Shown here: positions 361 through 29,197 of the stretch, in pieces
Position numbering within the stretch: position 1 is the first letter of the stretch
Layout: each line of letters opens with the position of its first letter
Source: a virus
Taxonomy: Duplodnaviria; Caudoviricetes
Virus record (IMG/VR): IMGVR_UViG_3300036858_000014
Coordinates: 1-50,445 of that record
DNA: 50,445 nucleotides
Reading direction: 5' to 3' (one strand)
Notes under the pieces: model-generated
The model's input: the letters and a program-made list of their open reading frames with translations, nothing else
Told to the model about the DNA's origin: nothing
The model's database searches: none
Program-made: the position numbers and the translations under genes

Positions 361-379
361 CTCTGTTTATCTTTGTGGG

Positions 380-2175: not shown

Positions 2176-2177
2176 AG

Positions 2178-8380: not shown

Positions 8381-8384
8381 CGGG

Positions 8385-9287: not shown

Positions 9288-9291
9288 CGGT

Positions 9292-10779: not shown

Positions 10780-10799
10780 GTTTATACTCCTAATCCCGG

Positions 10800-14474: not shown

Positions 14475-14477
14475 GTA

Positions 14478-16356: not shown

Positions 16357-16381
16357 AAGGGTTATATACTTCTATAGGGGT

Positions 16382-16729
16382 TTATGTCGGTATCGCATTA
16401 ATGTTAAACTGTCGAATGCCTATTTTCGTCTCGCTCGGATTGGTCAGCGTAGCAGTCGCGTACACCGTACACAGCCCCGCCGCAACCATCGTGAATTTTG
16501 CCCGTACCGCGTCACTACTCACGCCCGCATTTGTACCTTGCTGCGATGTGAACACCGCATCCGTTCCCGCGTCTTTGGTTGCCAGACTGGTTTCTGCTGA
16601 TGTCCATGTAACTGTCGATACGGACTGACCGGGATGCGATTGTAACCACGCAAGAAACGACAATTCAGCAAAGATAGACTCACCAACCGTCGCTTCGATA
16701 ATCTGTTCAGGCGTTATCGTCAGGGTCAT
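16382..16729 (-). CDS. Putative fibre-tail adaptor (small beta-sandwich)
   Basis: F..WL....VSTVTWT...G...V.ATAT pattern; 115 aa. Confidence 0.45.
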   Translation of the reverse strand: MTLTITPEQIIEATVGESIFAELSFLAWLQSHPGQSVSTVTWTSAETSLATKDAGTDAVFTSQQGTNAGVSSDAVRAKFTMVAAGLCTVYATATLTNPSETKIGIRQFNINAIPT

Positions 16730-16958
16730 AAAACACCGGGTTACTTAATGGGTCAAAATACAGGGGGTTACGGGTTGCAAGATACCGAACCGGATTGGAT
16801 TGCGGGTCTACGATAACGTTATTCGCCAGCGGGTCGATATACAGCGGATTGCGTTCGGGTAAATAGTACACATCGGTTTCACCCACAAACGGGATGGCAC
16901 TAAACGCATGGGTACCGACTAGCCCCGGTAATCCGATAACGTCAAGATAGCCACTCAT
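16707..16958 (-). CDS. Hypothetical protein with internal RNPLY(I/F)DPL repeats
   Basis: Coupled ORF with a visible peptide repeat. Confidence 0.55.
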   Translation of the reverse strand: MSGYLDVIGLPGLVGTHAFSAIPFVGETDVYYLPERNPLYIDPLANNVIVDPQSNPVRYLATRNPLYFDPLSNPVFYDPDDNA

Positions 16959-17920: not shown

Positions 17921-18543
17921 TAAAACGTCCTTACGCGGCGATAGTTACTCATGTACGGTACATACTGCCCCCGTATTTGTGGGGGTTGCGGGGTATACGC
18001 CCCGCCGTTCCACTGATCTATGCGGATTGTCGTATCAGGTAATGTAAACGATACATCACCCGCGCCGCTGTAGGTCGCATCAGTGGTACTCCCGATGAAT
18101 ACAAACGGGTTCGCGCCTGTTTTATACCATGAACTCAGTTCCGTACCGTACAACCGAATACCGATCCAATCACCTGCACTCACCTCCTGATTAGCGGCTT
18201 GCAACACAACCGCCGTTACAGGTGCGTCAATACGAATAAGCGCAATCGTATCCGTGCCTGCATTACGGGTGTAGCGTACTGCGTACCCGGTAAGCGTTAC
18301 AATACTCCCAATGTTTTGCACCCGCACCCCTAAATCGGTACTCGTGCCAACGCCGGGAAGCGTTGTAATCGGCATCGCCGCCCATGCATCCGCCCAATTC
18401 TCAGGGGTGTAGATACACACAGCAGGCGCAACACTTGCCGCTAACTGATTACTGGTAATCGTTGCTGTACCTGCGAGGTTCGTATAATTCGCACCAAGCG
18501 AAGCACGGTTGAAATCGTCTACTAAAGGCGGGTTAAAAGCCAC
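17920..18543 (-). CDS. Putative lectin-like virion protein
   Basis: DDFNRASLGANY start, beta-rich, TDATYSGAG; GTG start. Confidence 0.45.
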   Translation of the reverse strand: MAFNPPLVDDFNRASLGANYTNLAGTATITSNQLAASVAPAVCIYTPENWADAWAAMPITTLPGVGTSTDLGVRVQNIGSIVTLTGYAVRYTRNAGTDTIALIRIDAPVTAVVLQAANQEVSAGDWIGIRLYGTELSSWYKTGANPFVFIGSTTDATYSGAGDVSFTLPDTTIRIDQWNGGAYTPQPPQIRGQYVPYMSNYRRVRTF

Positions 18544-18620
18544 ACAATACCCTTCCCCGTCCCGGCTAGGACAGCACGATAGCCGGGAGAGGCTTCTAAG
18601 GGAGAAGATGATGTTGCAAC

Positions 18621-18652
18621 AAAAAAAGCGATTACGGGGGAGGTAATCGCTT
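18621..18652 (-). terminator. Intrinsic terminator in the late-operon leader
   Basis: GCGAUUAC-loop-GUAAUCGC followed by U7. Confidence 0.7.
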
Positions 18653-18669
18653 ATCGCTGCTAAGTATAG

Positions 18670-18699
18670 ATAATACCGCTATTATGCGAGGAAAGTCAA
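18670..18699 (-). promoter_or_regulatory. Putative sigma70 promoter
   Basis: TTGACT-N18-TATTAT. Confidence 0.45.
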
Positions 18700-18702
18700 G
18701 TT

Positions 18703-19182
18703 TCAGTCAATTAACTTTAGCGAGGCCGCTTCATTCTGCGCTTGGATATAATACTGCCGCGCCACGTTGATAAACTCGCTGTTCAGCACATCCCGTACAT
18801 ACATAAACGTAATCGTCGGATAGCCGTTTTTTTGCATCGCCCCGGCTATTGCCTGATACAACACCATCCCATACAAGCCCTCTTTAACCTTTTCGCCGTT
18901 TCGGATAATTGGCTGTCGATACTTTAACTCTAGCTTAAGCATGGTATCTTCCATCGGAAGCAGTTTGGGGATAAACGGCGTCTTCGTGGCTTGCACTTCA
19001 GTCGCGCGGCTGCTTGCGTTCGTCTGTACCACGCTGTGCAGACCAGCGGCCTTTTTGCTGCTGTCAGCTAAATGGTCAACTTGAACAGCACGAACGTCTA
19101 GTGATAAGTCAGGGGTATGATCATAGGGCATTTTGGCGTCACCTCTAAATGCCCCTAGTATAATACGGTTATTACAAATCAA
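18703..19182 (-). CDS. Hypothetical protein (start uncertain)
   Basis: ORF preceding the late leader. Confidence 0.45.
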   Translation of the reverse strand: MICNNRIILGAFRGDAKMPYDHTPDLSLDVRAVQVDHLADSSKKAAGLHSVVQTNASSRATEVQATKTPFIPKLLPMEDTMLKLELKYRQPIIRNGEKVKEGLYGMVLYQAIAGAMQKNGYPTITFMYVRDVLNSEFINVARQYYIQAQNEAASLKLID

Positions 19183-19191
19183 GCAAGTTAC

Positions 19192-19458
19192 CTACACATC
19201 CCACGTATGCCGATACCAGCGCACCCCTAAACGATAAACGGTTGGCTTTACTTCAAAGTGCGTATTCACATAGTGCGCTAACCGCTTCAAATCCCCCTCT
19301 AGCGGTTTCCAATGGCACTCAAACGGGCGTCTATCGTCATAGTATGAGAACACCATTGAGACATCACCGCTACCGTGTGAACCGAACGTAAATGCATCCG
19401 CTTGTTTCAGGTAGTCGAGAATGTCGTCTACAGTCAGTTCTAGCCACGAAGTCGCCAT
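19192..19458 (-). CDS. Hypothetical protein
   Basis: RBS and operon packing. Confidence 0.6.
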   Translation of the reverse strand: MATSWLELTVDDILDYLKQADAFTFGSHGSGDVSMVFSYYDDRRPFECHWKPLEGDLKRLAHYVNTHFEVKPTVYRLGVRWYRHTWDV

Positions 19459-19461
19459 CCC

Positions 19462-19800
19462 CTATTCCTTCCCTAATCGCCGTTTCATCAATTCATACGC
19501 GGCCTGTATCGCCTCGTCCACATCGTAGTGCGTATCATTCATGGTATAACCGCCGCAATTCAGAACACCGTACTCATCTACCCAAGTAATCGGCGCGTCC
19601 GCTACCGTCCACCCTTCTTTAGCGCACAGTTCACGCCACAACGGACGCAAGGTTGGCTCATGTTGGGCGATACGCAATGCGGCATACTCATTGTGATAAT
19701 GGTCTATTGCAAGTTCGCAGTCGATAATGGTTCTCCGTAACTTTTCAATGGCTGCATGAATGGCGTTACAGGTTGCGTCATAGGTTGTGCTGTTTTCCAT
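19462..19800 (-). CDS. Hypothetical protein
   Basis: RBS and operon packing. Confidence 0.6.
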   Translation of the reverse strand: MENSTTYDATCNAIHAAIEKLRRTIIDCELAIDHYHNEYAALRIAQHEPTLRPLWRELCAKEGWTVADAPITWVDEYGVLNCGGYTMNDTHYDVDEAIQAAYELMKRRLGKE

Positions 19801-19808
19801 ACTATCCC

Positions 19809-20030
19809 CTACTCCAACCCCGGATACGCCCGCATATCCGCACCGTCTACCAGCGCCGCATTGCGCGACGGGTAGCCCTGCCAGCTTTGGATAGCGTCTA
19901 GTGGATAAATAACTGTACCGTCATGATCTGTGTAGACGTACAAAAACTTATCCATAATGGATACTAATAATCTACTTTGCGCCTCATGCGTAATCAGGTT
20001 GCCAGATACAGGCGTGATGAGTAGAAACAT
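19809..20030 (-). CDS. Hypothetical protein
   Basis: Operon packing. Confidence 0.55.
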   Translation of the reverse strand: MFLLITPVSGNLITHEAQSRLLVSIMDKFLYVYTDHDGTVIYPLDAIQSWQGYPSRNAALVDGADMRAYPGLE

Positions 20031-20034
20031 GGTT

Positions 20035-20559
20035 TTATTTACCCCCTATTGCATTGCACTGTGGGCAGGGGTTGCCTGCAATGACTGAATCGCAACCGCA
20101 ATAACGGCATTGGGTAGTCTTGCCCGATGGTACAAAATGCGTATCAATTTCACCGTTGCATAATTCGTCCATTGTCATTCCAAACACCGCCGCTAACTTG
20201 CGAACGGTTTTCATTTGCGGTTCATGGTTCTGAACCTCTAAGTTGTTGATACTACCCTGCCCTACACCTAGTTTTTTGGCTAAATCCCATTGTGACCAAT
20301 TACGCTGTAAACGGTACGCCCGCACTCGTTTACCGAATGTCATTTCCTGTGCAGGTAATTCAATCCCGAAAACTGACACATCCACACCGAGCGCGTCTGC
20401 ATACCGCTGAACCGTTTTGAACTGCGGACGGGTATCACGTAATTCCATATAGGCTACACTGCTAGGGTCAACGTTTAACCGTTTAGCAAGCTGCATTTGT
20501 GATAACCCAAGCCGCGTACGCACTTCTCGTAATTGTTGCCCAAACGTTTTCTCTGTCAT
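20035..20559 (-). CDS. Tandem XRE helix-turn-helix regulator with C-terminal zinc ribbon
   Basis: Two TFG..R..R....SQ..LAK.L.V domains; CRYC..CPQC. Confidence 0.88.
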   Translation of the reverse strand: MTEKTFGQQLREVRTRLGLSQMQLAKRLNVDPSSVAYMELRDTRPQFKTVQRYADALGVDVSVFGIELPAQEMTFGKRVRAYRLQRNWSQWDLAKKLGVGQGSINNLEVQNHEPQMKTVRKLAAVFGMTMDELCNGEIDTHFVPSGKTTQCRYCGCDSVIAGNPCPQCNAIGGK

Positions 20560-20998: not shown

Positions 20999-21001
20999 TG
21001 C

Positions 21002-21586
21002 TCATTCTCCCCTTAGCTTCATTAACTCATCTATCAGTTCATCCAATTTCGCGGGCGACAATTTCGCCGCCAGCTTTGCCGCATTCAGCGGCATATTCGA
21101 CATAGATAGGCTTACCGTTGCCCTACCCCCAACTTCCCCGCCAATCTCTGCCTCTAACCGCGCCGCGCTCCACCCGTTTGCTATCGCCAGTGCGAGCCAG
21201 TCGTGTAACACCGTATCGTCTTTAATGCGCGTAATCCTCTGGAAATGGGCAAACGACAGCGTATCCGCATCCAGCGCCGCCTTATACCGTTCACGCCATG
21301 TCGCGTCGAAACGGCGGCACACAACCGCGCAATTGCGAACCGTGCCGTTTGCGTACCGTTCCATGTACTGCGATGCATCTTCACCCCATACCGCCTCCCC
21401 TGCTATCCACGCATCCCCGACCCACCACTGCACACTCTTTTCAACAGTGGTTAGCCAGTGTAACCCGTTTCCCCATGCGGCTAACGTGATGCCGGGGCGT
21501 AGCGATAGCGTGTAGGGCGTGAGTTCAAAGTGAGCGAGCGGGGAGGGCTTTGTCATTTCGTCATGACATTGAATAGCGGTAGTCAT
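21002..21586 (-). CDS. LmbU-like putative DNA-binding protein
   Basis: QWWVGD, TVRN...VCRRF, LSFAH, WL..A...GWS...L motifs. Confidence 0.55.
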   Translation of the reverse strand: MTTAIQCHDEMTKPSPLAHFELTPYTLSLRPGITLAAWGNGLHWLTTVEKSVQWWVGDAWIAGEAVWGEDASQYMERYANGTVRNCAVVCRRFDATWRERYKAALDADTLSFAHFQRITRIKDDTVLHDWLALAIANGWSAARLEAEIGGEVGGRATVSLSMSNMPLNAAKLAAKLSPAKLDELIDELMKLRGE

Positions 21587-21852
21587 TCGTCTTTCGCCTT
21601 ACGCTTGATAGCGGGTTCAGTTTCACCATAAGCGGTGTGTGTCAAGAGAACCACTAAGACAGCGGCAATAATGATAACCACAGCACCTAAACCACCGAAA
21701 ACACGGCCTAATACGTCAATTATGACGGCCAGTGTTACCGCAATAATGCCTAGCCCTCCCATACCGATAACTACAGATGTCAGCGCTACTAAAAACGCCC
21801 GCAACAAACGCGGCAAGCGTAACCACTGGAAACGAACATATTCTTTTGTCAT
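21583..21852 (-). CDS. Membrane protein
   Basis: Two hydrophobic segments. Confidence 0.6.
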   Translation of the reverse strand: MTKEYVRFQWLRLPRLLRAFLVALTSVVIGMGGLGIIAVTLAVIIDVLGRVFGGLGAVVIIIAAVLVVLLTHTAYGETEPAIKRKAKDE

Positions 21853-22157
21853 TCTGTCACCCCATAAGCGTGTAACGCGCGAAAGGTATAATCTTCTAAA
21901 ACGATCAACGCATCATCTATGCTGTATACGACATCCACCTGCCCATTCCATTTGCTATGCCATTCCTTTTCATCCTCAGTGAGCTTGGCTTTAGGCATCT
22001 TGACTTCCATAAGCAGGTTATAGCCTTTCCATGATACGAGTAAATCCGGTACACCTTTGGCGCTCAACTGCTGTACTACCGCGCCCATAGCTACTAGCGC
22101 GTCGATAATCGCCCGTTCGTTTGCATCCCGTTTTGCCGCGCGTCTATTCAGACTCAT
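21849..22157 (-). CDS. VRR-NUC / PD-(D/E)xK nuclease (putative resolvase)
   Basis: KRDANE, GVPDLLV, LMEVK, LT.DE..W motifs. Confidence 0.85.
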   Translation of the reverse strand: MSLNRRAAKRDANERAIIDALVAMGAVVQQLSAKGVPDLLVSWKGYNLLMEVKMPKAKLTEDEKEWHSKWNGQVDVVYSIDDALIVLEDYTFRALHAYGVTE

Positions 22158-22422
22158 CTTGCACCCCTAGCAACGCTGCTAACTCGCGTTCTGTTACAAG
22201 TAACTCGTTGTAACTTATCCTATATTCGTCTGCGTAATAGGATGCGTCGTAAGCAAGCCAAGCCTTGCGAAACCTATCACTTGCCGCCCGCAACGCGGCC
22301 AACTCGCGTTCTAACTGCACAATACGCGCTTCCGCCTCAAGTGGTTTGTGCTTGAACAGGTTGTTATCCATTGTCTTTTGCCTCGCTCCGCAGTCTGTTT
22401 TCATCAGTAATTGCAATGGCAT
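22144..22422 (-). CDS. Hypothetical coiled-coil protein
   Basis: Operon packing; likely starts at MDNN. Confidence 0.5.
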   Translation of the reverse strand: MPLQLLMKTDCGARQKTMDNNLFKHKPLEAEARIVQLERELAALRAASDRFRKAWLAYDASYYADEYRISYNELLVTERELAALLGVQDESE

Positions 22423-22594
22423 CTAAAATAATGCAGTCCTCATTGTGCCAATCGCCAGCATGTCCACAGTGCGGGCATCCATCATCTAGGCCACGCGCCC
22501 AATAGCGGTCTAAAAGATCAACCGCATGGGTAATCGTGGCGTGGAGCAATACCCTATCCCGTGATTGTGCTAGTGTTCTTGATTGATTATCCAT
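22364..22594 (-). CDS. Hypothetical protein (CxxC...H..C)
   Basis: GGAGG RBS; overlaps neighbours. Confidence 0.55.
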   Translation of the reverse strand: MDNQSRTLAQSRDRVLLHATITHAVDLLDRYWARGLDDGCPHCGHAGDWHNEDCIILDAIAITDENRLRSEAKDNG

Positions 22595-22811
22595 GTCGCG
22601 CCGCCTCCTCGTTTAGTCCCGCCAGTCCGTTTAGCTTGTCGATACCCTCTTGCCACGTCTCCCATTGGGTTACAACGTGGCGTGTTACATCGTATAACGT
22701 GCCGTCGCCTTCAAACCACAGCCCTAGCTCGTAATGGTCGTTCTTATCCAATGCATAGGCGCTCTTCTGGAAACGGGCAAAAGCTTCGTAAAGCTCAATT
22801 AGAGACTTCAT
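22587..22811 (-). CDS. Hypothetical protein
   Basis: GAGGGG RBS. Confidence 0.55.
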   Translation of the reverse strand: MKSLIELYEAFARFQKSAYALDKNDHYELGLWFEGDGTLYDVTRHVVTQWETWQEGIDKLNGLAGLNEEAARHG

Positions 22812-22813
22812 GA

Positions 22814-23212
22814 TTATTCATCCCCTCGTGCTTGGCGTTGACGTTCGATAAACGACTTAGCAAAGCTGGCAGCAAACGGTGATACATCCCCACCGTCAAA
22901 CTCGTTATCATCAGGTGTGGAACTTTGAACCCTAAAACCGCCCTTACGAACCTCGCGCAAAAGGTCTTTAGCGAAATCCTCAAATAGCCCTTGAATAGCG
23001 TTCAAGGATATGCCGTTTAACTCGCGTGTGTACATTTCGGGCGTCTTGCCATTGGTTCGTAAAATTGCATCCTGCGCAATCGCCTTGAACGTAAACCCTT
23101 TTTCAATGAGACGGTCAATAGCTGCCAGCGTATCAATTTCCACTTGACCGCTGGCAGGATTGAGGCGCATTGTAAAATAACGCGCCTCACTTGTCTTTTC
23201 ACGTTTTGCCAT
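22814..23212 (-). CDS. Putative ParR-like adaptor
   Basis: Small gene translationally coupled (TAATG) to the actin-like gene; basic N-terminus, acidic flexible C-terminal region. Confidence 0.55.
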   Translation of the reverse strand: MAKREKTSEARYFTMRLNPASGQVEIDTLAAIDRLIEKGFTFKAIAQDAILRTNGKTPEMYTRELNGISLNAIQGLFEDFAKDLLREVRKGGFRVQSSTPDDNEFDGGDVSPFAASFAKSFIERQRQARGDE

Positions 23213-24243
23213 TACCACGCCCCTACCAAGCGCATAAGCGCTCCGACCTTTGCAAGCCCAAACACGTTAGCGAATTTCATCAAATCGCGGTTCTGTTCTG
23301 CGAAGATGAAATCAATACGCGGGTAGGATTGCACCAGCGCGTCATGAATCAGCGCCGCGCCGCCGCCCGTAAGCAGGATGTTGTCGAAGTTTGCCGCGCC
23401 GCCCGCTTCTTCGATGATCTGAATCACATCGTTGACCAGCGCTTGCATCACCGCGCCCGCTTCTTCTTGGCAGTCAATGGTGATGTTACCGAATTTGTAG
23501 CGCCCATTGAGAATAGCATCCTCAACACGGCGAATATCCAAATCGCCAGCATCACGAAATAACGTCCGGTTGTTTGCCCGCAACATGCTTTCAAAATCGT
23601 TGGTCATGTTGATAACGCCCGCGCGGGTAGACTTCAAACTGAGGGTGTCGATATTGCCGCCGGGGTCAACTGCTGCCACGTCCGTTGTATGTCCGCCGCA
23701 GTCAAGAACTAACGTTGTCACGTCGCGCAACGGATTCTTTTTGCGTTCCTCCCCACGTTCCGTCAAAGTGTAGTGTGAATAGCCCGCAATCGGTTCATCG
23801 GCTGTCATCACCTCGCGCACCTGATAGGTAAATTCGCCGTTGCGCGTTTCCACCTGCCAGATACCCTTTGCAGATAACACAATATCCCGCGCGTATTCCA
23901 CATCACCGGGGGCGTGTGAAGCAAACAAAGTGATGTTGCCCATATCCCGCGAAAACGTTTCACTGAGGGCGCAGGCAAGGGCAAACCCGTAATACTGCTG
24001 CGTGTATCGCGCCGCGCCGCGTGGTTTTTCTTTGAGCGTATAACGCCGCGCAGCATCACCAAATGCTAACGGTTGCCCATTCACGCGCAAGATACCGCTA
24101 GGCGGCTTGCCATTGCCACAAGCCCGCCGCCAGTCCGCTTCACTCAGCATCGCCAGCGCATGTCGCGCATCTGCATACTTGTGCTGTTTTGGAAAAAACC
24201 ACTTCCAACGGGCATTCCCAAAGTCTAAAACAAAATCAACCAT
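23212..24243 (-). CDS. parM: ParM/StbA-family actin-like ATPase
   Basis: LDFGN (phosphate 1), EPIAG, VLDCGGHTTDV (phosphate 2), LLTGGGA (adenosine). AAAGGA RBS places the start at 24243. Confidence 0.88.
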   Translation of the reverse strand: MVDFVLDFGNARWKWFFPKQHKYADARHALAMLSEADWRRACGNGKPPSGILRVNGQPLAFGDAARRYTLKEKPRGAARYTQQYYGFALACALSETFSRDMGNITLFASHAPGDVEYARDIVLSAKGIWQVETRNGEFTYQVREVMTADEPIAGYSHYTLTERGEERKKNPLRDVTTLVLDCGGHTTDVAAVDPGGNIDTLSLKSTRAGVINMTNDFESMLRANNRTLFRDAGDLDIRRVEDAILNGRYKFGNITIDCQEEAGAVMQALVNDVIQIIEEAGGAANFDNILLTGGGAALIHDALVQSYPRIDFIFAEQNRDLMKFANVFGLAKVGALMRLVGAW

Positions 24244-24260
24244 ATATGTCCTTTCGATTA

Positions 24261-24328
24261 TACGTTTATGGGTCATAAACTACGTTTACGCCCGTTTATA
24301 TTATCGGTCAATATGGCTGATTTGTCAA
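24261..24328 (-). promoter_or_regulatory. par operon promoter with parC-like repeats
   Basis: TTGACA-N17-GATAAT (24328-24300); CGTTTA at 24263, 24283, 24293 and an inverted TAAAC at 24276. Confidence 0.6.
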
Positions 24329-24367
24329 GTTACAGCGTCCATACTATCCGTTGCATTATGGACGCCC

Positions 24368-24610
24368 CTACGCCCCTACCCTACGCCCTGCTTCCCGCTG
24401 CTTTGCACCCTTGCCAATTGTTGTTAGCAGTTGGTACACCCGCGACTCGCTCACGCCGTAGCGGAATGCGATGTCAGCGATGGTGTCGCCACGTCTGACG
24501 GCGTTCCACATGAGCCGCGCTTTCATAGCAGCGGTTAGGTGTCGATAGCTAATCCAGTTGCGGTAGCGGGTTTCACGTTCTGATCTATTCATCATCCGTC
24601 TCCCAGTCAC
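24368..24610 (-). CDS. HTH DNA-binding protein (sigma region 4-like)
   Basis: GDTIADIAFRYGVSESRVYQLL. Confidence 0.65.
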   Translation of the reverse strand: MTGRRMMNRSERETRYRNWISYRHLTAAMKARLMWNAVRRGDTIADIAFRYGVSESRVYQLLTTIGKGAKQREAGRRVGA

Positions 24611-24812
24611 CTAACGCATAATCTTCACCGCGTTCTATGCTTCGCCCTAATCCCGCCCGCCCGTTGGCTAACCGTCTCATCATGAGCTGAAAGTTCTTTT
24701 GACGACAATCCAGCTCGATACAATGCCAACCGTGTGAAAAATCCCATATCATTACGACATGACAATGCGGGCAGGTAGGCGGTTGCTGTTGATCGTTAAT
24801 CGTGTGAAACAT
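24585..24812 (-). CDS. Zinc-ribbon hypothetical protein
   Basis: CPHC...WHC...C; AGGGGAG RBS. Confidence 0.55.
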   Translation of the reverse strand: MFHTINDQQQPPTCPHCHVVMIWDFSHGWHCIELDCRQKNFQLMMRRLANGRAGLGRSIERGEDYALGDWETDDE

Positions 24813-25300
24813 AGCTGCTCCCCTTTCACTAGCTCAAATTCCAAAACCCACGCTTGATAGCGCTCGGCAGGGCGGGTTGCTAAAGTAGGTCGTACACCTT
24901 GCCAGATAATCGCCCCGGTATCGTAGTCGGGAATAATAGGCGTGATAACGCTTTTATCGTGCATTTTCACCCATGCAATAAAAAAGTCACTGGCGGTTTG
25001 AAACCCTTCCGCCTCCACGTCGGCATCGCTAATCTCGCGTACATCCTCCCGCCGGATGCTGAGAATGCGAATACGCGCTACGGCTGCCTTACCGCGCCCC
25101 GGTTGGACGGCGTAGGTTTTTTCAGGCTCAAATGAAATTGATGTTGCGTGAACAATGCGGTTGTTTGCCGCGCGTACAATGTCGTGTCTACCGTCATAGT
25201 AGAGCGAGTCCAAATATTCACCCGGCTTCACTAATCGCCGCGTTTGGCTTTTCTCCCCTGTCAAAACCTTTTCCCACGTATGTTGAAAAATCATCGTCAT
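24752..25300 (-). CDS. ASCH domain protein
   Basis: VLTGEKSQTRR, IRILSIRRE, IS..DVEAEGF, WVLEFEL. Confidence 0.85.
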   Translation of the reverse strand: MTMIFQHTWEKVLTGEKSQTRRLVKPGEYLDSLYYDGRHDIVRAANNRIVHATSISFEPEKTYAVQPGRGKAAVARIRILSIRREDVREISDADVEAEGFQTASDFFIAWVKMHDKSVITPIIPDYDTGAIIWQGVRPTLATRPAERYQAWVLEFELVKGEQLCFTRLTINSNRLPARIVMS

Positions 25301-25345
25301 TCCTCTTTACTAAGCCGCCTCTAAATCGACGCGGCTATAAAACCC

Positions 25346-25579
25346 TTAGTTGCTACCATCCCGCGCGTTTTTGCGCGGTTCTGACGCCGATTTGAGGCGT
25401 TCTAGCATTGCCTCAGTGTACGGAAGCGCGTATAACTGTGCATCAATCGCTTTCGGTGTAGCCATCTTGCCGCGCTTCTCACTGCGGATAACCGCCATCT
25501 CAGCAGCGGTATACCAACCACCCCGCCAGCGGTAGGCCACGATTGCGACGGCGGGTGTGTGCCATGTGCTGTAGCTCAT
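25346..25579 (-). CDS. Hypothetical protein
   Basis: ATGA overlap with the upstream gene. Confidence 0.5.
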   Translation of the reverse strand: MSYSTWHTPAVAIVAYRWRGGWYTAAEMAVIRSEKRGKMATPKAIDAQLYALPYTEAMLERLKSASEPRKNARDGSN

Positions 25580-26337
25580 CTTGTACTCTCCCCATAAATT
25601 ACCCGCCAGCCATCCGCTAGCATTTCGTCGCGTACTTGTTTCACGATAGACCGACTCACATCTACCGCCGCTGGCAGTTCTACACCGTGCGACCCGCGCC
25701 GCATGTTTTCACTAGCACTGATCACGCGCAATTGGGCGTACTGCCAGTGGTAATCTATCCACAGCGCTTCCAAATCCTTTGGCATGAGAATCGTGTGACT
25801 GTTATCCCCACCGGATTGCAAAACCACCGTATCCACGTTGACGCGGTAGCGCTGCATAAACGTCTCGGCAATCCAGCGAAACGTATGCGGCGGCGCGTGG
25901 TCTACGTGTGACGTGTTTGGGGTAAGGTACTCGCCCGTTAATTCGCAAATCGGATTTGGGTTATTTGCGAAATACGCCGTTCGGTAGACCAGAACCCCCG
26001 CCGCAATCGCTTGACGGCAGGCTTGCAAAAACCGCGCCTTGTGCGTTGGGGCGCGTAAGCACTTGTTAAAGCTGAAATCCGTTCGTGTGCCATCGCGCCG
26101 GATAACTGCAAACTGTTTTTGTTTAAACGTCGGGTTGATCTCAACACAAAAGCCTTTTACACCCGCGCCTATCTTCTCACTGGCATGAGGGTGCATGGCG
26201 AGTACATCCTCCATAAAGTCGGCATCATCCGGCGCTAATGTATCCCCCGCGTGATAGCTGTTGAGGATGCTCCGAATCGCATCCCCTAGCGCCGCTTTAC
26301 TGGTGAACACATACCCATCTATGACATACTCGCTCAT
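25576..26337 (-). CDS. DCL/DUF3223-family protein with HNH-like C-terminus
   Basis: HP.ASEKIGAGV, F.V.R.DG...DFS..KC; HVDH..P.TF...H...LR......N. Confidence 0.7.
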   Translation of the reverse strand: MSEYVIDGYVFTSKAALGDAIRSILNSYHAGDTLAPDDADFMEDVLAMHPHASEKIGAGVKGFCVEINPTFKQKQFAVIRRDGTRTDFSFNKCLRAPTHKARFLQACRQAIAAGVLVYRTAYFANNPNPICELTGEYLTPNTSHVDHAPPHTFRWIAETFMQRYRVNVDTVVLQSGGDNSHTILMPKDLEALWIDYHWQYAQLRVISASENMRRGSHGVELPAAVDVSRSIVKQVRDEMLADGWRVIYGESTR

Positions 26338-28223
26338 TTGCTATTGTCCTTATCCATCCACTTGAGACGCGAGAATAACACCGGGATTTCAATCTCATTA
26401 CCCGTCAATTCCGCCATTGTGTTTTTAAGGCAGCGCCCGGTTAGAATGCCAACCTTGCCGCGCCCGTGTGGGTCATCATAGCTTACGCGCTTGCCATCCT
26501 CGAATTTTGGCACAAATGCAAATACAAAATTGGCTTGCTGGTCACTCAAAAATTGCATCATACTGGCTTCCAACTTGCCGCCCGTCTTGGCAAGTTCGGC
26601 ATCATCTTTACGCATCTGCGAATTGACAAACCCCACCAGATTGTTATCCCGGCAAACATCTTTGAGTTTGTTAATGGCGGTTTCAATCCACACGCGCCCG
26701 TTTTCCGTACCGTTTTGTAACCACAGCAGTTGGGCAAAATCAATCCACACCGCCTGAATACGGATGCCATTGCGTAGCTCCCGCTGGCAAATGGCGTCGA
26801 TTGTCGCGCATAACTGCTCAACCGATAAGCCGGGGTTTTTGATATAGAACGCCCGCCCCGGTCTACGCATTAGGTTAGAAGCGTGGTTACAGCTTGCCGC
26901 AACCTGATTCATGCTTAACGGTTTGCCGCTGGTGGTTTTAAGATTAAACTCTTGCTCGGCTTGGGAGAGGCGGTGTTTCTGCCAGTCGTTAAAAAACGCC
27001 CCGCCTTGCCGCTGTACCGCCCGCGCTGCTAATTCAATCGCGTTCTGTTTTTTATCGACCCATTCCGGCGTGTACACAATGCTGTGAATGCCCATGTCTT
27101 GATAGGCTTCCCATCCGGTTTCAAACCCGATGGTCTTTGTACCGCCGCTGATGCTGGCGAAATAGATCAGTTTCCCCGGCGGGATGATTTCACCCATGCC
27201 GCCTTGCGAGTGCAGGAATTTAAACGGGTTAATCAGTGGCGCAGCAACGGGTTTTACAACGCCCGTTAATTCGTCAATGTAGGCTTGTAAGGCGTCGATA
27301 TCGCTGCAATACAAATCATCAATGTTGAATGACTCACCCGTCGGCAAAGCTAATTGTTCTGGCGGAAGCGCCCGTACTTCCAACGGTTTGCAGTCTTGAA
27401 AACGGGCAAGCGCTTGGTCGGTGTACAGCTTGCAAAAGTCGGCTAAATCCCCACCATCGCCTAATCCTAGGTCAATGGCAACGGCATCAACCCCGATGGC
27501 TTGAAACGCCTTGACCAATCCGAACGCGGCGTTTGTTCCGGTGAAATCGCAGTCAAGCGCGATTACAACCTTGCCGTTGTAATGCAGTTTAACTTGCTCT
27601 AACAACTCGCTTGAAAACGTTCCCGTTTCCCCGCTGGTGATGGTTGTCGCGGGTAATCCCCAGTATTGACCTGCGACAACCGATATTTCCCCGTTGCAGA
27701 ATACCAGCGGCGTGCCCTTGTCTAACGCCATTTTCGCCGCCCGTTCCAAGCCGTACCAGCATTTTTTGTAACCTAACTCACTCTTAAACGCAGGCTTTTG
27801 CCCGTCTGTAAAGCGAAAGCGCAGCCCGCCGCGCGTCTTAAACGGCATTGCCGGACGGCCTGAAATCGGTTCGATCTCACCCCAGTACCATTCCGCCAGC
27901 GTTTCATCCGGTACACCGTGTGCCTCTGCATAATCCTTGCGCGTGGTGTACTGCCGTTTGGTCGATGTCACCCGTTCAAACCGCCGCGCCGGGGTGATGT
28001 TTAAGTGCGCTGCCAGTTGGTACAGTGACCCTTTATAGGTTTCGTCCTTGTGGTCGATATACGTCCCGTGTTCACCATCCGCCGCAATCCGTACCACAAA
28101 CGCATTACCGTCGCTACCTGTGCGGAAGGGGGACGCACCCCGCCATTGATCCCCTCGCTCATGCTTAAGCCCATGTGTGCGCTCTAATGCCGCCCGTACC
28201 ATATCCCACGTCGTTTGTGTCAT
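26334..28223 (-). CDS. Primase (TOPRIM)-SF4 helicase fusion
   Basis: FCNGE, IALDCD.TG, GGDLADF; helicase motifs SGGTKT, WIDFAQLL, NSQMRK, LKN. Confidence 0.75.
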   Translation of the reverse strand: MTQTTWDMVRAALERTHGLKHERGDQWRGASPFRTGSDGNAFVVRIAADGEHGTYIDHKDETYKGSLYQLAAHLNITPARRFERVTSTKRQYTTRKDYAEAHGVPDETLAEWYWGEIEPISGRPAMPFKTRGGLRFRFTDGQKPAFKSELGYKKCWYGLERAAKMALDKGTPLVFCNGEISVVAGQYWGLPATTITSGETGTFSSELLEQVKLHYNGKVVIALDCDFTGTNAAFGLVKAFQAIGVDAVAIDLGLGDGGDLADFCKLYTDQALARFQDCKPLEVRALPPEQLALPTGESFNIDDLYCSDIDALQAYIDELTGVVKPVAAPLINPFKFLHSQGGMGEIIPPGKLIYFASISGGTKTIGFETGWEAYQDMGIHSIVYTPEWVDKKQNAIELAARAVQRQGGAFFNDWQKHRLSQAEQEFNLKTTSGKPLSMNQVAASCNHASNLMRRPGRAFYIKNPGLSVEQLCATIDAICQRELRNGIRIQAVWIDFAQLLWLQNGTENGRVWIETAINKLKDVCRDNNLVGFVNSQMRKDDAELAKTGGKLEASMMQFLSDQQANFVFAFVPKFEDGKRVSYDDPHGRGKVGILTGRCLKNTMAELTGNEIEIPVLFSRLKWMDKDNSK

Positions 28224-29197
28224 AGCCCTAGTTCCTCCGGGTTAAACTCGCTTACGTCCCAACCAGATAGATCAAAGGGCTTGCTAGCGGTGGTTGATTC
28301 GGGTAAGGCCAAGCGACTTCTCAACCAATCCCCATGCTGAGAGGGCATATCAAGCGGGCTAATCGATTTCTTCCAGCTTAAGGCGGCGCGGGTAAACGTT
28401 GCCAGTGAAGCAAAATCATCAGGTTTACACTGAATGCGCGTAAGCTCATCTAACGTTTCAATATATTGCAAGGCGCGTGATTTAGGCATCTCCGTAATGG
28501 ATGTGTAAACTGATGCATCACCCCATGCAGCCATTAGCGCTACCAGATCAAGGCTGTACCTTGCCGTGTATCGCTCAACATGCTCATACGTCCAATCGCG
28601 GTAATGTTTTGGAAATGGTTTTTCAGCCCGCGAGGTTGGCTTTGAAGATGGCTTTGAAGATGGCTTTGATTCAGTGTGTTCAACAACACCGGTACTGGTT
28701 TGTTCAACAACACCTTGCATAGTGTTGTCAGACACACCGCCAGTTTGTTCAACAACACTAGCAGAACCGTACCGCTTTTCTTGCATTTTCTGCCGTGCTT
28801 TAGCGGTTTGCTGGCGGCGGTTGGATTCGTTCATATCGGTACGGGCGATAAGTTCACCCCACTTAATCCCGGTATCGTGCAATTCCCACGCCTGCCCGTC
28901 CTCAGTAGCTTTCCCTTCCCGCGTAAGAAACCCAAATGTAACAAGGCTTTCGAGGGCGGTGATAATGGCGTGTTTGCCAAGCCCGCAACCCTGATAACGT
29001 TTGCCATCAGCAGTCGTAAATCCGTTTTCAAACATGGTTAGACTGATAGCGCCTTGCCGCTTTTTAATTTTGTCTTGCCACCCCATAATATGGCGGGTAG
29101 CGAAAAGTAGGACGCGCAATTCGCTATTGGTTAGGTAAGGCATCGCCTGATCTATAAACGCATTAGGCGTCTGAAATGTGTTCGGAACGATAGTCAT
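28220..29197 (-). CDS. Replication initiator (lambda O-like)
   Basis: PNTFQTPN..ID..M..L..SELRVLL...R...GW....AISL..F N-terminus; internal iterons. Confidence 0.8.
   Translation of the reverse strand: MTIVPNTFQTPNAFIDQAMPYLTNSELRVLLFATRHIMGWQDKIKKRQGAISLTMFENGFTTADGKRYQGCGLGKHAIITALESLVTFGFLTREGKATEDGQAWELHDTGIKWGELIARTDMNESNRRQQTAKARQKMQEKRYGSASVVEQTGGVSDNTMQGVVEQTSTGVVEHTESKPSSKPSSKPTSRAEKPFPKHYRDWTYEHVERYTARYSLDLVALMAAWGDASVYTSITEMPKSRALQYIETLDELTRIQCKPDDFASLATFTRAALSWKKSISPLDMPSQHGDWLRSRLALPESTTASKPFDLSGWDVSEFNPEELGL
28637..28758. repeat. Iterons / putative replication origin
   Basis: TGTTCAACAACAC at 28677, 28701, 28746 (degenerate copy at 28723), plus the tandem 12-mer TGGCTTTGAAGA about 2.7 times from 28637. 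Confidence 0.7.

What the first reader, a model, noticed from the sequence alone, without database searches (positions are those of the whole stretch)
22814..24328. ParMRC-like partition cassette and no integrase: candidate phage-plasmid
Seen: a consensus promoter, CGTTTA repeats in 10-bp phase just downstream of it, an actin-like ATPase, and a coupled small gene. Known: type II partition systems (R1 ParMRC) have this layout, whereas P1 and N15 use ParA-type systems. No tyrosine or serine integrase is visible in a complete genome. Inference: extrachromosomal lysogeny, or filament-based positioning of phage DNA.
Basis: partly seen in the sequence, partly recalled or inferred. Interest (0 to 1): 0.7.

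Follow-up and report, generated by a model that had tools for sequence, protein, structure and literature searches.

The report
Actin-type partition cassette in a phage
A complete 50-kb tailed phage genome, probably of a Chloroflexota host, carries a genuine ParM/ParR-type DNA-segregation cassette and no integrase, which makes plasmid-like carriage plausible but unproven, and such cassettes are already known in Bacillus plasmid prophages.

Summary
On the minus strand there is an 11/12 sigma-70-like promoter (24328-24300). Four RTAAAC hexamers follow between the -10 box and the ribosome site (24299-24264). Next comes a 343-aa ParM-family actin-fold ATPase (24243-23212), then a 132-aa gene overlapping it by one base (23212-22814).

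Comparison with related loci strengthens the reading:
- The ATPase and small gene travel together in dozens of metagenomic loci.
- 22 of 30 distinct upstream regions carry 2-7 phased GTAWAC/RTAAAC hexamers at the same place.
- The small protein models as a ribbon-helix-helix N-domain plus a C-terminal helix. A complex model docks that helix onto the ATPase (0.87 vs best control 0.02).

I call this a real ParMRC-like module (about 0.85).

No tyrosine or serine recombinase, rve transposase or protelomerase was found. The genome closes as a 50,318-bp circle.

The phage-plasmid reading stays a candidate (about 0.45-0.5):
- No lysogeny module was identified beyond a double-HTH XRE protein.
- The cassette sits inside the co-directional early-to-late gene array.
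- CGP3 AlpAC shows that such systems can serve lytic replication.
- ParM-type plasmid prophages (IEBH, B83) are already in print.

Verdict: a new member of a known kind, moderate interest.

The parts
24300..24328 (-). sigma-70-like promoter: TTGACA (24328-24323), 17-nt spacer, GATAAT (24305-24300)
   Evidence: 11 of 12 consensus positions, the best of 4 sites in 21000-26500; sequence read
24264..24299 (-). parC-like operator/centromere candidate. Four hexamers: ATAAAC 24299-24294, GTAAAC 24289-24284, inverted GTTTAT 24280-24275, ATAAAC 24269-24264. The array starts at the base after the -10 box.
   Evidence: It is the only cluster of 4 in the window and arose in 0 of 300 simulations. The same four-hexamer layout at about -56/-46/-37/-26 from the start codon is seen in L091, L094, L097, L099 and L100.
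24249..24254 (-). ribosome-binding site AAAGGA, 5 nt before the ATG at 24243
   Evidence: sequence read; the start is supported by the N-termini of 27 aligned homologues
23212..24243 (-). ParM-like actin-fold ATPase, 343 aa (stop at 23214-23212)
   Evidence: PF21522 at 30.3 bits is over its cut-off and phrog_691 gives 2.5e-23. The PDB profile search gives pSK41 ParM 3js6 at 2.8e-6. The AF2 model has pLDDT 92.1 and Foldseek returns ParM-type folds first. Invariant residues are D7 G9 N10 K14, D181 G183 G184 T186 D188 and T292 G293 G294.
22814..23212 (-). ParR-like adaptor, 132 aa. Layout: basic N-tail, strand YFTMRL, two helices (23-37, 42-53), a linker helix (70-90), an acidic stretch and a C-terminal helix (112-129).
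   Evidence: Its ATG overlaps the ParM stop. 43 distinct downstream ORFs were found in related loci, one of them (L118) spurious-looking; alignment A2. The AF2 model has pLDDT 79. VIA-align hits over residues 8-57 are mostly RHH proteins, all with Z<=4.1. The complex model scores 0.87 against 0.02 for the best control. It has no Pfam, PHROG or NCBIfam family.
24335..24365 (.). 9-nt perfect inverted repeat (GCGTCCATA / TATGGACGC, 13-nt loop). It lies between the stop of the upstream 80-aa HTH gene and the -35 box. It may be an insulating hairpin or a regulator site; its function is not established.
   Evidence: I9; there is no T-run and the terminator scan did not call it

Best explanation
This is a working type II (ParMRC-like) DNA-segregation cassette carried by a complete, circularly closing, integrase-less tailed phage genome of 50,318 bp. 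The host is probably a Chloroflexota bacterium.

Proposed mechanism:
- The sigma-70-like promoter at 24328-24300 drives parM-parR.
- ParR dimers bind the four RTAAAC hexamers that begin right after the -10 box, through an N-terminal ribbon-helix-helix domain. This both represses the promoter and builds a small partition complex on the phage DNA.
- The ParR C-terminal amphipathic helix (about residues 108-129) docks into a groove on ParM. That groove is formed by the helix at residues 150-159, the strands at 192-203 and the C-terminal helix at 333-342.
- ATP-dependent ParM filaments then move or separate copies of the circular phage genome.

The most likely biological setting is stable inheritance of an extrachromosomal (plasmid) prophage.

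What is shown: the sequence elements, the family membership of the motor, the co-conservation of motor, adaptor and repeats, and the absence of five integrase-type families.

What is modelled only: the RHH fold and the ParR-ParM interface.

What is inferred: DNA binding, autoregulation, filament formation and the plasmid lifestyle.

My odds: the cassette is a true ParMRC-like system, about 0.85; it serves plasmid-prophage maintenance, about 0.45-0.5.
For: Motor.
- PF21522 is over its cut-off and phrog_691 gives 2.5e-23.
- A profile of 27 homologues hits only ParM/Alp chains in the PDB, with 3js6 best at 2.8e-6.
- The model (pLDDT 92.1) matches Ta0583, pSK41, pCBH, B. thuringiensis, CorM, Alp7A and R1 ParM ahead of MreB.
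- The residues I read as the actin-fold nucleotide motifs are invariant.

Adaptor.
- It is always adjacent to the motor: 43 distinct downstream ORFs were found, most overlapping the ParM stop by 4 nt.
- Alignment A2 has a conserved N-terminal strand-helix-helix and a conserved C-terminal helix.
- The AF2 model has helices at 23-37 and 42-53.
- VIA-align's list over residues 8-57 is mostly RHH proteins. The top hit is 2q2k_B (Z 4.1, rmsd 2.8, 44 aligned); ParR of pB171, 2jd3_B, has Z 3.5.

Motor-adaptor contact.
- The complex model scores 0.87 and the best of 3 controls scores 0.02.
- That mark was reached by 58 of 80 solved complexes and by 2 of 110 mismatched pairs.
- The runs agree in at least 90% of contacts, and the partner's pLDDT is at least 65.

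cis site.
- 22 of 30 distinct upstream regions hold 2-7 GTAWAC/RTAAAC hexamers within 120 nt of the ParM start.
- The background expectation for GTAWAC is 0.0-0.35 per 150 nt.
- The four-hexamer layout of the window recurs in L091, L094, L097, L099 and L100.
- Three loci whose ParR strand lacks the conserved Arg (L024, L025, L108) have no such hexamers.

Lifestyle.
- No PF00589, PF00239, PF07508, PF00665 or PF16684 match was found.
- The ends overlap by 127 nt.
- Two independent Logan contigs of 12,897 and 37,477 nt, with equal depth (11.6 and 12), cover 1-20000, run over both ends and show no loose ends.
- An O-like initiator, a primase/helicase and iterons give an autonomous replication module.
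- 18 of the 120 listed ParM homologues sit on contigs of 42-64 kb.
- The plasmid prophage IEBH (53 kb) likewise has a ParM-like gene plus a small downstream gene. Its recombinase column in Table 1 of PMC8026635 reads '-' (PMC8026635 passage).
Against: - No lysogeny or immunity module was recognised. There is no Peptidase_S24, and 20 ORFs in 29-45 kb gave no significant Pfam family. The only candidate is a double HTH_3 protein at 20035-20559.
- The cassette is co-directional with, and contiguous to, the early and late genes. The next ORF starts 2 nt after the ParR stop, so it is not an insulated maintenance module. In IEBH the partition genes lie in the reverse-strand block after the lysis genes, divergent from the replication gene.
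- There are only four hexamers. Some relatives have 6-7 in regular pairs.
- Relatives of the cassette also sit in contigs of 127 kb to 1.3 Mb. In the two loci examined (L028, L105) the flanking genes look cellular or island-like. So ParMR is not restricted to small extrachromosomal replicons.
- Every fold match to the RHH domain has Z<=4.1, which is within the range the tool calls a common arrangement.
- The complex pass may reflect likeness to the solved R1 ParM-ParR peptide complex (4a62, listed).
- Only one sequencing run holds the genome, probably its source, and only as contigs. No phage-to-host coverage ratio could be measured.
Confidence: 0.5

Rival explanations
1. The system works like AlpAC of the Corynebacterium prophage CGP3. 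The same ParM/ParR/hexamer machinery is expressed early in the lytic cycle. It positions or spreads replicating phage DNA, for example to the membrane or along a filamentous host cell, and so aids replication and packaging. It does not maintain a plasmid prophage. The phage could then be virulent, or temperate by an unrecognised route.
For: - The cassette lies between the replication genes (O-like initiator 29197-28223, primase/helicase 28223-26337) and the packaging genes (TerL 15803-14481). It is on the same strand, and no gap or terminator follows ParR.
- The same placement recurs elsewhere: TerL lies about 2.4 kb downstream of ParR in L101, and a primase lies upstream in L097.
- No repressor-protease or other lysogeny marker was found.
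- CGP3 AlpA binds a consensus in the alpAC promoter and binds AlpC, and both are needed for efficient phage replication (PMC4446434 abstract).
- PMC8026635 (passage) states that partition proteins alone do not guarantee plasmid replication.
Against: - CGP3 is an integrated prophage, whereas here no integrase-type gene exists.
- A self-repressed promoter directly abutting the repeats fits low constitutive expression as well as early lytic expression.
- The closest described analogues by layout (a ParM-like gene plus a small adaptor in siphoviruses of about 50 kb) are plasmid prophages (PMC8026635 Table 1 passage).
- The two roles are not exclusive.
Confidence: 0.3
2. The pair is a self-regulated cytoskeletal module with another purpose, and the hexamers are only an operator. 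ParM filaments would act on the host, for example on cell shape, division or septation in a filamentous host, or in exclusion of competing elements. They would not act on the phage's own DNA.
For: - There are only four hexamers, placed exactly where a repressor would sit, directly after the -10 box.
- Related ParMR pairs occur in large chromosomal-size contigs with 2-3 hexamers.
- Chromosomal ParMs and a cyanobacterial CorM/CorR filament appear among the fold matches (8x1i, 9rmi).
Against: - The adaptor keeps a conserved C-terminal helix that the model docks on ParM. A pure repressor would have no need of it.
- Motor, adaptor and repeats are co-inherited across very different backbones.
- In L105 the pair sits directly after a Prim-Pol/DUF3987 gene, beside toxin-antitoxin and polymerase genes. 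That is a replicon-like context.
Confidence: 0.1
3. The repeats and promoter are chance features, and the small ORF is an unrelated gene that happens to follow an actin-fold ATPase.
For: - The window holds only three exact CGTTTA copies.
- The count of promoter-like sites is not above shuffles.
- My cluster statistic used a motif defined after the fact.
Against: - Independent loci with 30-75% ParM identity show the same hexamer family at the same position, against a background of 0.0-0.35 per 150 nt.
- The small ORF is conserved next to ParM: 43 distinct ORFs were found, and its profile finds 697 cluster representatives at E<=1e-3.
Confidence: 0.03

Closest known systems
ParM-like plus RHH-adaptor partition systems of Bacillus plasmid prophages (IEBH, vB_BtS_B83; also Bp8p-C with an HTH adaptor)
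   Same: - A tailed phage of about 50 kb carries an actin-like motor of about 343 aa with a small overlapping downstream gene.
- IEBH is listed with no recombinase.
- B83 is described with a putative centromere region (PMC8026635 Table 1 and Group 3 passages; PMC11526630 passage; IEBH layout).
   Different: - The sequences are very distant. The window ParM and IEBH gp76 share 23% identity over 257 aa (pairwise E 2e-6). tblastn of the window ParM finds nothing in 50,697 GenBank phage records.
- The adaptors show no detectable similarity (hhalign probability 0.45%).
- In IEBH the partition genes lie on the reverse strand in the block after the lysis genes, and the replication gene is divergent from them. 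Here the cassette is inside the co-directional early-to-late array.
- The host phylum differs (Bacillota versus probable Chloroflexota).
- Plasmid carriage is experimentally known for those phages and unknown here.
pSK41 ParMRC (Staphylococcus aureus plasmid) and pB171/R1 ParMRC
   Same: - pSK41 ParM is the best PDB sequence match to the family profile (3js6, 2.8e-6). It is among the top fold matches (5.1e-19, TM 0.71/0.75).
- The adaptor's N-domain model aligns best with 2q2k_B and also with pB171 ParR 2jd3_B. I recall 2q2k as the pSK41 ParR-centromere complex; the tool's own title does not say so.
- In all of these the repeats lie at the promoter, the adaptor gene lies downstream of the motor, and the adaptor's C-terminus contacts the motor. 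The R1 ParM-ParR peptide complex is 4a62, listed.
   Different: - Sequence identity to these structures is 14-18%.
- The array here has four 6-bp cores, three direct and one inverted, over 36 bp. From recall, not from a call, R1 has ten 11-bp iterons and pSK41 has 20-bp repeats.
- The array lies entirely downstream of the -10 box.
- The carrier is a phage, not a plasmid.
AlpAC/alpS of Corynebacterium glutamicum prophage CGP3
   Same: - It is a phage-borne actin-like protein with a co-transcribed adaptor.
- The adaptor binds a consensus in its own promoter region and binds the motor.
- The genes are early (PMC4446434 abstract; PMC5539076 abstract).
   Different: - CGP3 is integrated in the chromosome, whereas the window has no integrase-type gene.
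- Sequence relationship to AlpC and AlpA was not tested here, because no AlpC sequence was fetched.
ParMR pairs in large Chloroflexota MAG contigs and in a 1.3-Mb metagenome contig (L028-L034, L105)
   Same: - They belong to the same ParM family (34-37% identity) and the same ParR family.
- They have the same GTATAC-type hexamers before the start codon.
   Different: - They form a different subfamily: the ParR C-terminus reads '...SVKKAxRPG', and the hexamers come in regular pairs, up to 6-7 copies.
- They are located in contigs of 127 kb to 1.3 Mb.
- L105 lies beside Prim-Pol/DUF3987, AbiE and PolA genes, and L028 lies beside cellular-looking genes.

Membership tests
Type II (ParMRC) partition system | Motor is an actin-fold ATPase of the ParM/Alp group | tested here: met
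   PF21522 scores 30.3 bits against a cut-off of 27.8. PF21523 scores 23.8, below its cut-off of 27.4. phrog_691 gives 2.5e-23. The PDB profile search hits only ParM/Alp12 chains. In the Foldseek list ParM-type structures rank above MreB.
Type II (ParMRC) partition system | Nucleotide-binding motifs of the actin fold are intact | tested here: met
   Invariant in 27 homologues: D7 G9 N10 K14; D181 G183 G184 T186 D188; T292 G293 G294. Assigning these to the phosphate-1, phosphate-2 and adenosine motifs rests on general knowledge of the fold, not on a call.
Type II (ParMRC) partition system | Small adaptor gene lies directly downstream of the motor in one operon | tested here: met
   The genes overlap as TAATG in the window. 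43 distinct downstream ORFs were found in related loci, most with a 4-nt overlap.
Type II (ParMRC) partition system | Adaptor binds DNA through an N-terminal ribbon-helix-helix domain | tested here: inconclusive
   The model has a conserved strand segment followed by helices 23-37 and 42-53. VIA-align hits over residues 8-57 are mostly RHH proteins, including ParR of pB171, but all have Z<=4.1. Foldseek found nothing at E<=0.001. There is no Pfam RHH hit in any of 31 members.
Type II (ParMRC) partition system | Adaptor C-terminal helix is predicted to dock on the motor | tested here: met
   The complex model scores 0.87 and the best of 3 controls scores 0.02. The mark was reached by 58 of 80 solved complexes and 2 of 110 mismatched pairs. 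Runs agree in at least 90% of contacts, and partner pLDDT is at least 65. This is a model only, and a like complex (4a62) is solved, so the pass may show likeness rather than binding.
Type II (ParMRC) partition system | Centromere-like array of short repeats lies at or next to the operon promoter | tested here: met
   Four hexamers at 24299-24264 abut the -10 box. The same motif family occurs at the same place in 22 of 30 distinct related upstream regions. Binding by ParR was not tested.
Type II (ParMRC) partition system | ATP-dependent filament formation and stabilisation of a replicon | not testable with these tools
   This needs polymerisation assays and a plasmid-loss assay.
Phage-plasmid (plasmid prophage) | Complete phage genome with packaging and tail genes | tested here: met
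   TerL (phrog_2, 3.3e-35). Tape measure protein. CheckV estimate 100% with DTR. 127-nt end overlap.
Phage-plasmid (plasmid prophage) | No integration machinery | tested here: met
   No match at E<=1 for PF00589, PF00239, PF07508, PF00665 or PF16684 in six frames. The unassigned 382-aa ORF resembles TIM-barrel and glycosidase-like clusters, not recombinases. An unknown type of integrase cannot be excluded.
Phage-plasmid (plasmid prophage) | Own replication initiator and origin | tested here: met
   O-like initiator (phrog_678, 3.1e-9) and a weak primase/helicase match (phrog_239, 1.1e-4). There are iterons inside the initiator gene. Such modules also occur in phages that do not live as plasmids.
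Phage-plasmid (plasmid prophage) | Lysogeny control (immunity repressor) | tested here: inconclusive
   The only candidate is the double HTH_3 protein at 20035-20559. Phage_CI_repr scores 26.8 bits against a cut-off of 22. RstR-family scores 73.3 against a cut-off of 80. There is no Peptidase_S24.
Phage-plasmid (plasmid prophage) | Observed extrachromosomal carriage in dividing host cells | not testable with these tools
   One run holds the genome, as contigs only, and no host is identified in it.
NCBIfam equivalogs: ParM (NF010498) and PRTRC system protein D (TIGR03739) | Score over the curated cut-off | tested here: not met
   32.9 bits against a cut-off of 417, and 42.4 bits against a cut-off of 214.8. 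The protein is a distant relative, not a member of either equivalog.
AlpAC of prophage CGP3 | Carried by a chromosomally integrated prophage | tested here: not met
   No integrase-type gene was found, and the assembly closes as a circle.
AlpAC of prophage CGP3 | Sequence relationship to AlpC and AlpA | not tested

The most novel reading that the evidence does not exclude
The cassette marks a large, so far undescribed lineage of integrase-less tailed phages of about 45-60 kb in Chloroflexota. These would live as plasmid prophages, the first phage-plasmids for this phylum. They would be held by a ParM/ParR system whose centromere is a short array of GTAWAC-type hexamers, read by the ParR ribbon strand. 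In support of such reading, the strand residues and the hexamer variant appear to change together (TMRL with ATAAAC, SARL with GTAAAC, mostly SFRL with GTATAC, and no hexamers where the Arg is lost). The same module would also serve Prim-Pol replicons that sit in megabase-size contigs of the same phylum.
Probability: 0.35. Interest if true: 0.6.

Novelty: new member of a known kind. Interest (0 to 1): 0.42.

Why it matters
If the phage is carried as a plasmid, phage-plasmids would extend to Chloroflexota, a phylum with almost no cultured phages or plasmids. It would also provide a compact segregation module of about 1.5 kb with a defined candidate centromere, usable as a tool in these organisms.

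Apart from lifestyle, three results stand on their own:
- The adaptor family is large and belongs to no curated family. Its profile finds 697 cluster representatives, and none of 31 members has a Pfam family.
- The hexamer array is conserved across related loci.
- The adaptor strand and the hexamer variant appear to change together, which gives a tractable case for how ribbon-helix-helix adaptors change DNA specificity.

The core idea, an actin-type partition cassette on a phage, is already documented for Bacillus plasmid prophages and for CGP3. A specialist's surprise would therefore be moderate.

Tried and rejected
Searches that found little or nothing:
- blastn (distant mode) of 22500-24700 and tblastn of ParM against 50,697 GenBank phage records gave no match.
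- Single-protein scans of IMG/VR with ParM, TerL, P0077 and P0024 found no relative.
- The primase/helicase found one complete 52.7-kb record, G408. It shares only that gene (55% identity) and a distant ParM (26%), so it is not a close relative.
- TerL was searched in 401 genomes of the GTDB class around the Phototrophicaceae MAG G001. There were 6 weak matches (36% identity or less), and none of the 5 of those genomes that I searched has the ParM family.
- The ParM profile in the same 401 genomes matched 1 of 401 at E<=1e-30, and that one is G001 itself.
- TerL in the five MAGs that hold ParMR loci gave 0 of 5.
- Pfam on 20 ORFs of 29-45 kb gave only two sub-threshold domain hits and no repressor.

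Adaptor comparisons that gave nothing:
- Foldseek of the ParR model against the PDB found nothing at E<=0.001.
- The ParR profile against PDB sequences gave a best E of 0.19, to unrelated helical proteins.
- hhalign of the ParR alignment against the IEBH adaptor gave probability 0.45%.

A test I do not rely on:
- My strict promoter regex found a consensus promoter in only 4 of 30 related upstream regions and missed the window's own. I therefore make no claim that the promoter is conserved.

Sequencing runs:
- One holder was listed, a soil metagenome that may be the source. No RNA holder was listed.
- Laying contigs gave no coverage ratio and no view of the second contig junction.

Tools and data that were unavailable:
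- The listing of cluster members added no names for ten of them.
- Supplementary files of the papers were not opened. Table S3 of PMC8026635 may list further ParM-type plasmid prophages.

Ideas considered and rejected:
- That the 382-aa unassigned ORF (39313-38165) is a novel integrase. Its nearest clusters are TIM-barrel or glycosidase-like.
- That the terminal repeat is a true packaging DTR. An exact 127-nt overlap is what an assembler leaves on a circle, and two Logan contigs sum to the same circle.
Full report
**What the window is.** The window is a whole IMG/VR virus record of 50,445 bases, classed as having direct terminal repeats, with a CheckV completeness estimate of 100%.
- The repeat is an exact 127-nt overlap of the two ends. 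The unique length is therefore 50,318 bp.
- One public run holds the sequence. It is a soil metagenome and may be the source.
- In that run, two Logan contigs of 12,897 and 37,477 nt cover 1-4112 and 4085-20000. Their depths are equal (11.6 and 12), both run over the ends of the laid stretch, and there are no loose ends.
- Their summed length minus two 28-nt overlaps is 50,318. Only one of the two overlaps was seen, so closure into a circle is my arithmetic inference.
- Nearly all genes lie on the minus strand.
- Recognisable genes are: large terminase 15803-14481 (phrog_2, 3.3e-35); tape measure 47715-45157; O-like replication initiator 29197-28223; a weak primase/helicase match 28223-26337; and an Erf/Rad52-like annealing protein 32782-32090.
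- No tRNA gene was found.

**The observation.**
- The promoter TTGACA-17-GATAAT (24328-24300) matches 11 of 12 positions. It is the best of four promoter-like sites in 5.5 kb. The number of such sites is not above shuffles.
- The repeat array begins right after the -10 box: ATAAAC (24299-24294), GTAAAC (24289-24284), inverted GTTTAT (24280-24275) and ATAAAC (24269-24264).
- A cluster of four such hexamers within 42 nt occurs once in the window and in 0 of 300 first-order Markov simulations. The motif was defined after the fact, so this number is weak on its own.
- A ribosome site AAAGGA precedes the ATG at 24243.
- The 343-aa product passes PF21522 (30.3 bits, cut-off 27.8). It falls just short of PF21523, and it matches phrog_691 'partition protein' at 2.5e-23.
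- The 132-aa gene starts on the last base of the ParM stop codon (TAATG). It has no Pfam, PHROG or NCBIfam family.

**The motor.**
- A search of 5.8 billion clustered proteins gave 196 relatives. The best 120 share 48-100% identity, and nearly all are 337-361 aa.
- A profile of 27 of them (A1) hits only ParM-type chains among PDB sequences. pSK41 ParM 3js6 is best at 2.8e-6, followed by pCBH ParM, R1 ParM and Alp12.
- The AlphaFold model is confident (pLDDT 92.1, pTM 0.88).
- Foldseek ranks Ta0583, pSK41 ParM, B. thuringiensis ParM, pCBH ParM, CorM, Alp7A, a chromosomal Desulfitobacterium ParM and R1 ParM ahead of MreB.
- The invariant columns of A1 include D7-G9-N10-K14, D181-G183-G184-T186-D188 and T292-G293-G294. 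From general knowledge of the actin fold I read these as the phosphate-binding and adenosine loops, which points to an active ATPase.
- The protein is not a member of NCBI's ParM or PRTRC-D equivalogs (32.9 and 42.4 bits against cut-offs of 417 and 214.8).
- Its nearest plasmid relatives are ParM/StbA proteins of Pseudomonas and Xanthomonas plasmids, at about 28% identity over about 60% of the length.

**The adaptor.**
- I fetched related loci from viral contigs (19 loci), GTDB species genomes (64 loci) and metagenome contigs (37 loci).
- tblastn of 81 window ORFs against the closer loci showed that only ParM and the small gene travel together. Occasionally the 182-aa ORF at 25300-24752 is also shared, and once a weak O-like initiator match. 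The backbones are otherwise unrelated.
- A script found 43 distinct ORFs of 80 aa or more starting within a few bases of the ParM stop, most with a 4-nt overlap. One of them (L118) looks spurious.
- The alignment of 31 (A2) shows one architecture: a basic tail; a short strand (YFTMRL in the window, xSFRL in most); a helix; a 'GY-x-x-K/R-x-I-x-x-D-A-L' helix; a variable coiled linker; an acidic patch; and a conserved amphipathic C-terminal helix.
- The AlphaFold model (pLDDT 79) places helices at 23-37, 42-53, 70-90 and 112-129.
- Foldseek found nothing significant.
- The VIA-align search of 48,161 chains returned a list over residues 8-57 that is mostly ribbon-helix-helix proteins: NikR, PutA, RelB, Arc, ParD, omega, ParG and ParR of pB171 at Z 3.5. 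It is headed by 2q2k_B (Z 4.1, rmsd 2.8, 44 aligned).
- I recall 2q2k as the pSK41 ParR-DNA complex, but the tool's title does not say so. All Z values are below the level the tool regards as safe, so the fold is suggested, not shown.
- A complex model of ParM with ParR residues 95-132 scored 0.87, against 0.02 for the best of three controls. That mark was reached by 58 of 80 solved complexes and 2 of 110 mismatched pairs. The runs agree in at least 90% of contacts and the partner's pLDDT is at least 65.
- The contacts join ParR 108-129 to ParM 115-119, 146-173, 192-203 and 333-342. From memory this is the same kind of groove that takes the ParR peptide in R1 ParM. Because that complex (4a62) is solved, the pass may reflect likeness.
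- A profile search of 1.84 billion representatives found 697 relatives of the adaptor at E<=1e-3 and 401 at E<=1e-10.
- None of the 31 aligned members has a Pfam family beyond single chance-level hits.

**The cis site.** This is the strongest new evidence.
- I looked in the 150 nt before the ParM start in 33 loci, counting the window, that had enough upstream sequence.
- Strict GTAWAC hexamers occur 2-7 times in 22 loci, once in 4 loci and not at all in 7. The rest of each locus gives an expectation of 0.0-0.35 per 150 nt.
- When RTAAAC is allowed and identical upstream regions are merged, 22 of 30 have two or more hexamers, 4 have one and 4 have none.
- In the clade closest to the window the layout is the same four-hexamer unit at about -56, -46, -37 and -26 from the start codon, as in L091, L094, L097, L099 and L100. 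The central inverted pair is conserved: TAAACGTAGTTTAT in both the window and L091.
- In a more distant clade the hexamers come in pairs 10 bp apart, repeated every 23 bp, with up to seven copies (L023, L104-L106, L122).
- The hexamer variant seems to follow the adaptor's strand. TMRL/SMRL goes with ATAAAC or ATATAC, SARL with GTAAAC, and SFRL mostly with GTATAC (L097 and L100 have SFRL with GTAAAC).
- The three loci whose strand lacks the Arg (L024, L025, L108) have no hexamers. The numbers are small and the sequences are related, so this is a lead.
- Because the array abuts the -10 box, bound ParR should also repress the promoter. That is inference.

**Host and distribution.**
- The 18 best of the 64 species-genome loci all come from MAGs labelled Chloroflexota, Chloroflexi, Anaerolineae or Phototrophicaceae, at 28-56% identity. 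All lower hits are 32% identity or less over partial alignments and come from other phyla (lineage of Phototrophicaceae).
- The unassigned 382-aa ORF also has its nearest clusters in Chloroflexota and viruses.
- The family is sporadic. Only 1 of 401 sampled genomes of the class around the Phototrophicaceae MAG has it at E<=1e-30, and that one is the MAG itself.
- Some copies lie in contigs of 127 kb to 1.3 Mb. L028 has cellular-looking neighbours. In L105 the pair follows a Prim-Pol/DUF3987 gene and sits beside an SNF2 helicase, an AbiE toxin-antitoxin pair, a family A polymerase and DUF4417.
- In phage-like loci the pair again lies between replication and packaging genes: TerL is about 2.4 kb downstream of ParR in L101, and a primase is upstream in L097.

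**Lifestyle.**
- No tyrosine recombinase, serine recombinase (two models), rve transposase or protelomerase is present at E<=1 in six frames. The controls were positive.
- The initiator gene holds iterons: a 12-nt unit repeated 2.8 times at 28637-28669, and three copies of GTGTTGTTGAACAnAC between about 28684 and 28757. An autonomous origin is therefore likely.
- These features, the circular closure, and the 18 of 120 homologues on contigs of 42-64 kb fit a plasmid prophage.
- Several points count against it. No Peptidase_S24 was found and no lysogeny gene was recognised in 20 ORFs of the 29-45 kb region. The only candidate repressor is a double HTH_3 protein at 20559-20035.
- The cassette is also not insulated: the next ORF starts 2 nt after the ParR stop, and the whole array runs one way.
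- In Bacillus phage IEBH, an established plasmid prophage, the partition protein and its small partner lie on the reverse strand in the block after the lysis genes. The replication gene is divergent from them.

**Comparison with the known.**
- Passages of PMC8026635 (Introduction with Table 1, and the Group 1-4 sections) and of PMC11526630 (Introduction) list IEBH, Bp8p-C and B83 as plasmid prophages that use a ParM-like protein with an RHH or HTH adaptor. IEBH and Bp8p-C are listed without recombinases. An actin-type system on a phage-plasmid is therefore in print.
- The same paper warns that such proteins do not guarantee plasmid replication, citing CGP3.
- The abstract of PMC4446434 states that the integrated prophage CGP3 uses AlpC and the promoter-binding adaptor AlpA for efficient replication after induction.
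- Sequence links to these are remote. The window ParM and IEBH gp76 share 23% identity over 257 aa. The adaptors show no detectable similarity. No GenBank phage is matched by tblastn.
- Two literature searches gave nothing that addresses such a system in this phylum, judged from the listings: 'Chloroflex' + 'ParM' + 'phage' (44 papers, 10 listed) and 'Anaerolineae' + 'plasmid' + 'actin-like' (1 paper).

**Verdict.**
- The cassette is very probably a true ParMRC-like system (about 0.85). It has a divergent ParM, an adaptor family not yet in curated libraries, and a conserved hexamer array.
- Whether it maintains a plasmid prophage (about 0.45-0.5) or serves lytic-cycle DNA positioning (about 0.3) cannot be settled with these data.
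- It is a new member of a known kind, in a new host phylum, of moderate interest.

Noticed in passing
window 28637-28757 (inside the O-like initiator gene 29197-28223): Candidate replication origin, lambda-like in lying inside the initiator gene. A 12-nt unit TGGCTTTGAAGA is repeated 2.8 times at 28637-28669. Three copies of GTGTTGTTGAACAnAC lie just upstream on the coding strand.
   Followed up: partly
window 20035-20559 (-): A 174-aa protein with two tandem HTH_3 (XRE) domains. Phage_CI_repr scores 26.8 bits, over its cut-off of 22. RstR-family repressor scores 73.3, under its cut-off of 80. It is the only candidate immunity repressor, and it lies between the cassette and the packaging genes.
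   Followed up: partly
window 383-1081, 2181-4220 and 8388-9287 (-): Three glycosyltransferase-like genes (GtrB-like and other GT PHROGs) lie inside the structural gene array. They could be lysogenic-conversion genes or virion-glycosylation genes.
   Followed up: no
window 24335-24388: Between the 80-aa HTH gene and the -35 box there is a perfect 9-nt inverted repeat with a 13-nt loop (24335-24343 / 24357-24365). A tandem ACGCCCCT / CCCTACGCCC repeat follows at 24362-24388. No T-run is present and the role is unknown.
   Followed up: no
L028-L034 and L105 (contigs of 127 kb to 1.3 Mb): The same ParM/ParR/GTATAC-hexamer module occurs in large Chloroflexota contigs. In L105 it follows a Prim-Pol/DUF3987 gene and lies beside SNF2, AbiE toxin-antitoxin, PolA and DUF4417 genes, which looks like an integrated or very large replicon. 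In L028 the neighbours look cellular.
   Followed up: partly
related loci, ParR N-terminal strand versus upstream hexamers: The ParR strand motif and the hexamer variant appear to change together: TMRL/SMRL with ATAAAC or ATATAC, SARL with GTAAAC, SFRL mostly with GTATAC. Loci whose strand lacks the Arg (L024, L025, L108) have no hexamers. The sample is small and phylogenetically dependent.
   Followed up: partly
window 36405-36433 and 36483-36511: A perfect 29-nt direct repeat, 78 nt apart, lies inside the plus-strand ORF 36178-36765 in the mixed-orientation region.
   Followed up: no
window 38165-39313 (-): A 382-aa ORF with no Pfam or PHROG family. Its nearest Atlas clusters are unnamed Chloroflexota and viral proteins and a Glyco_hydro_cc cluster. 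The structure rows include TIM-barrel enzymes, at TM scores below 0.5. It may be a lysin or glycosidase, and it does not resemble a recombinase.
   Followed up: partly
G408 (IMG/VR record of 52,720 bp, DTR, CheckV 100%; loci L130-L134): A second complete phage record. It shares the primase/helicase (55% identity) and carries a distant ParM-like gene (26%) at 24884-25897. It also has no PF00589 match, and otherwise its backbone is unrelated.
   Followed up: partly
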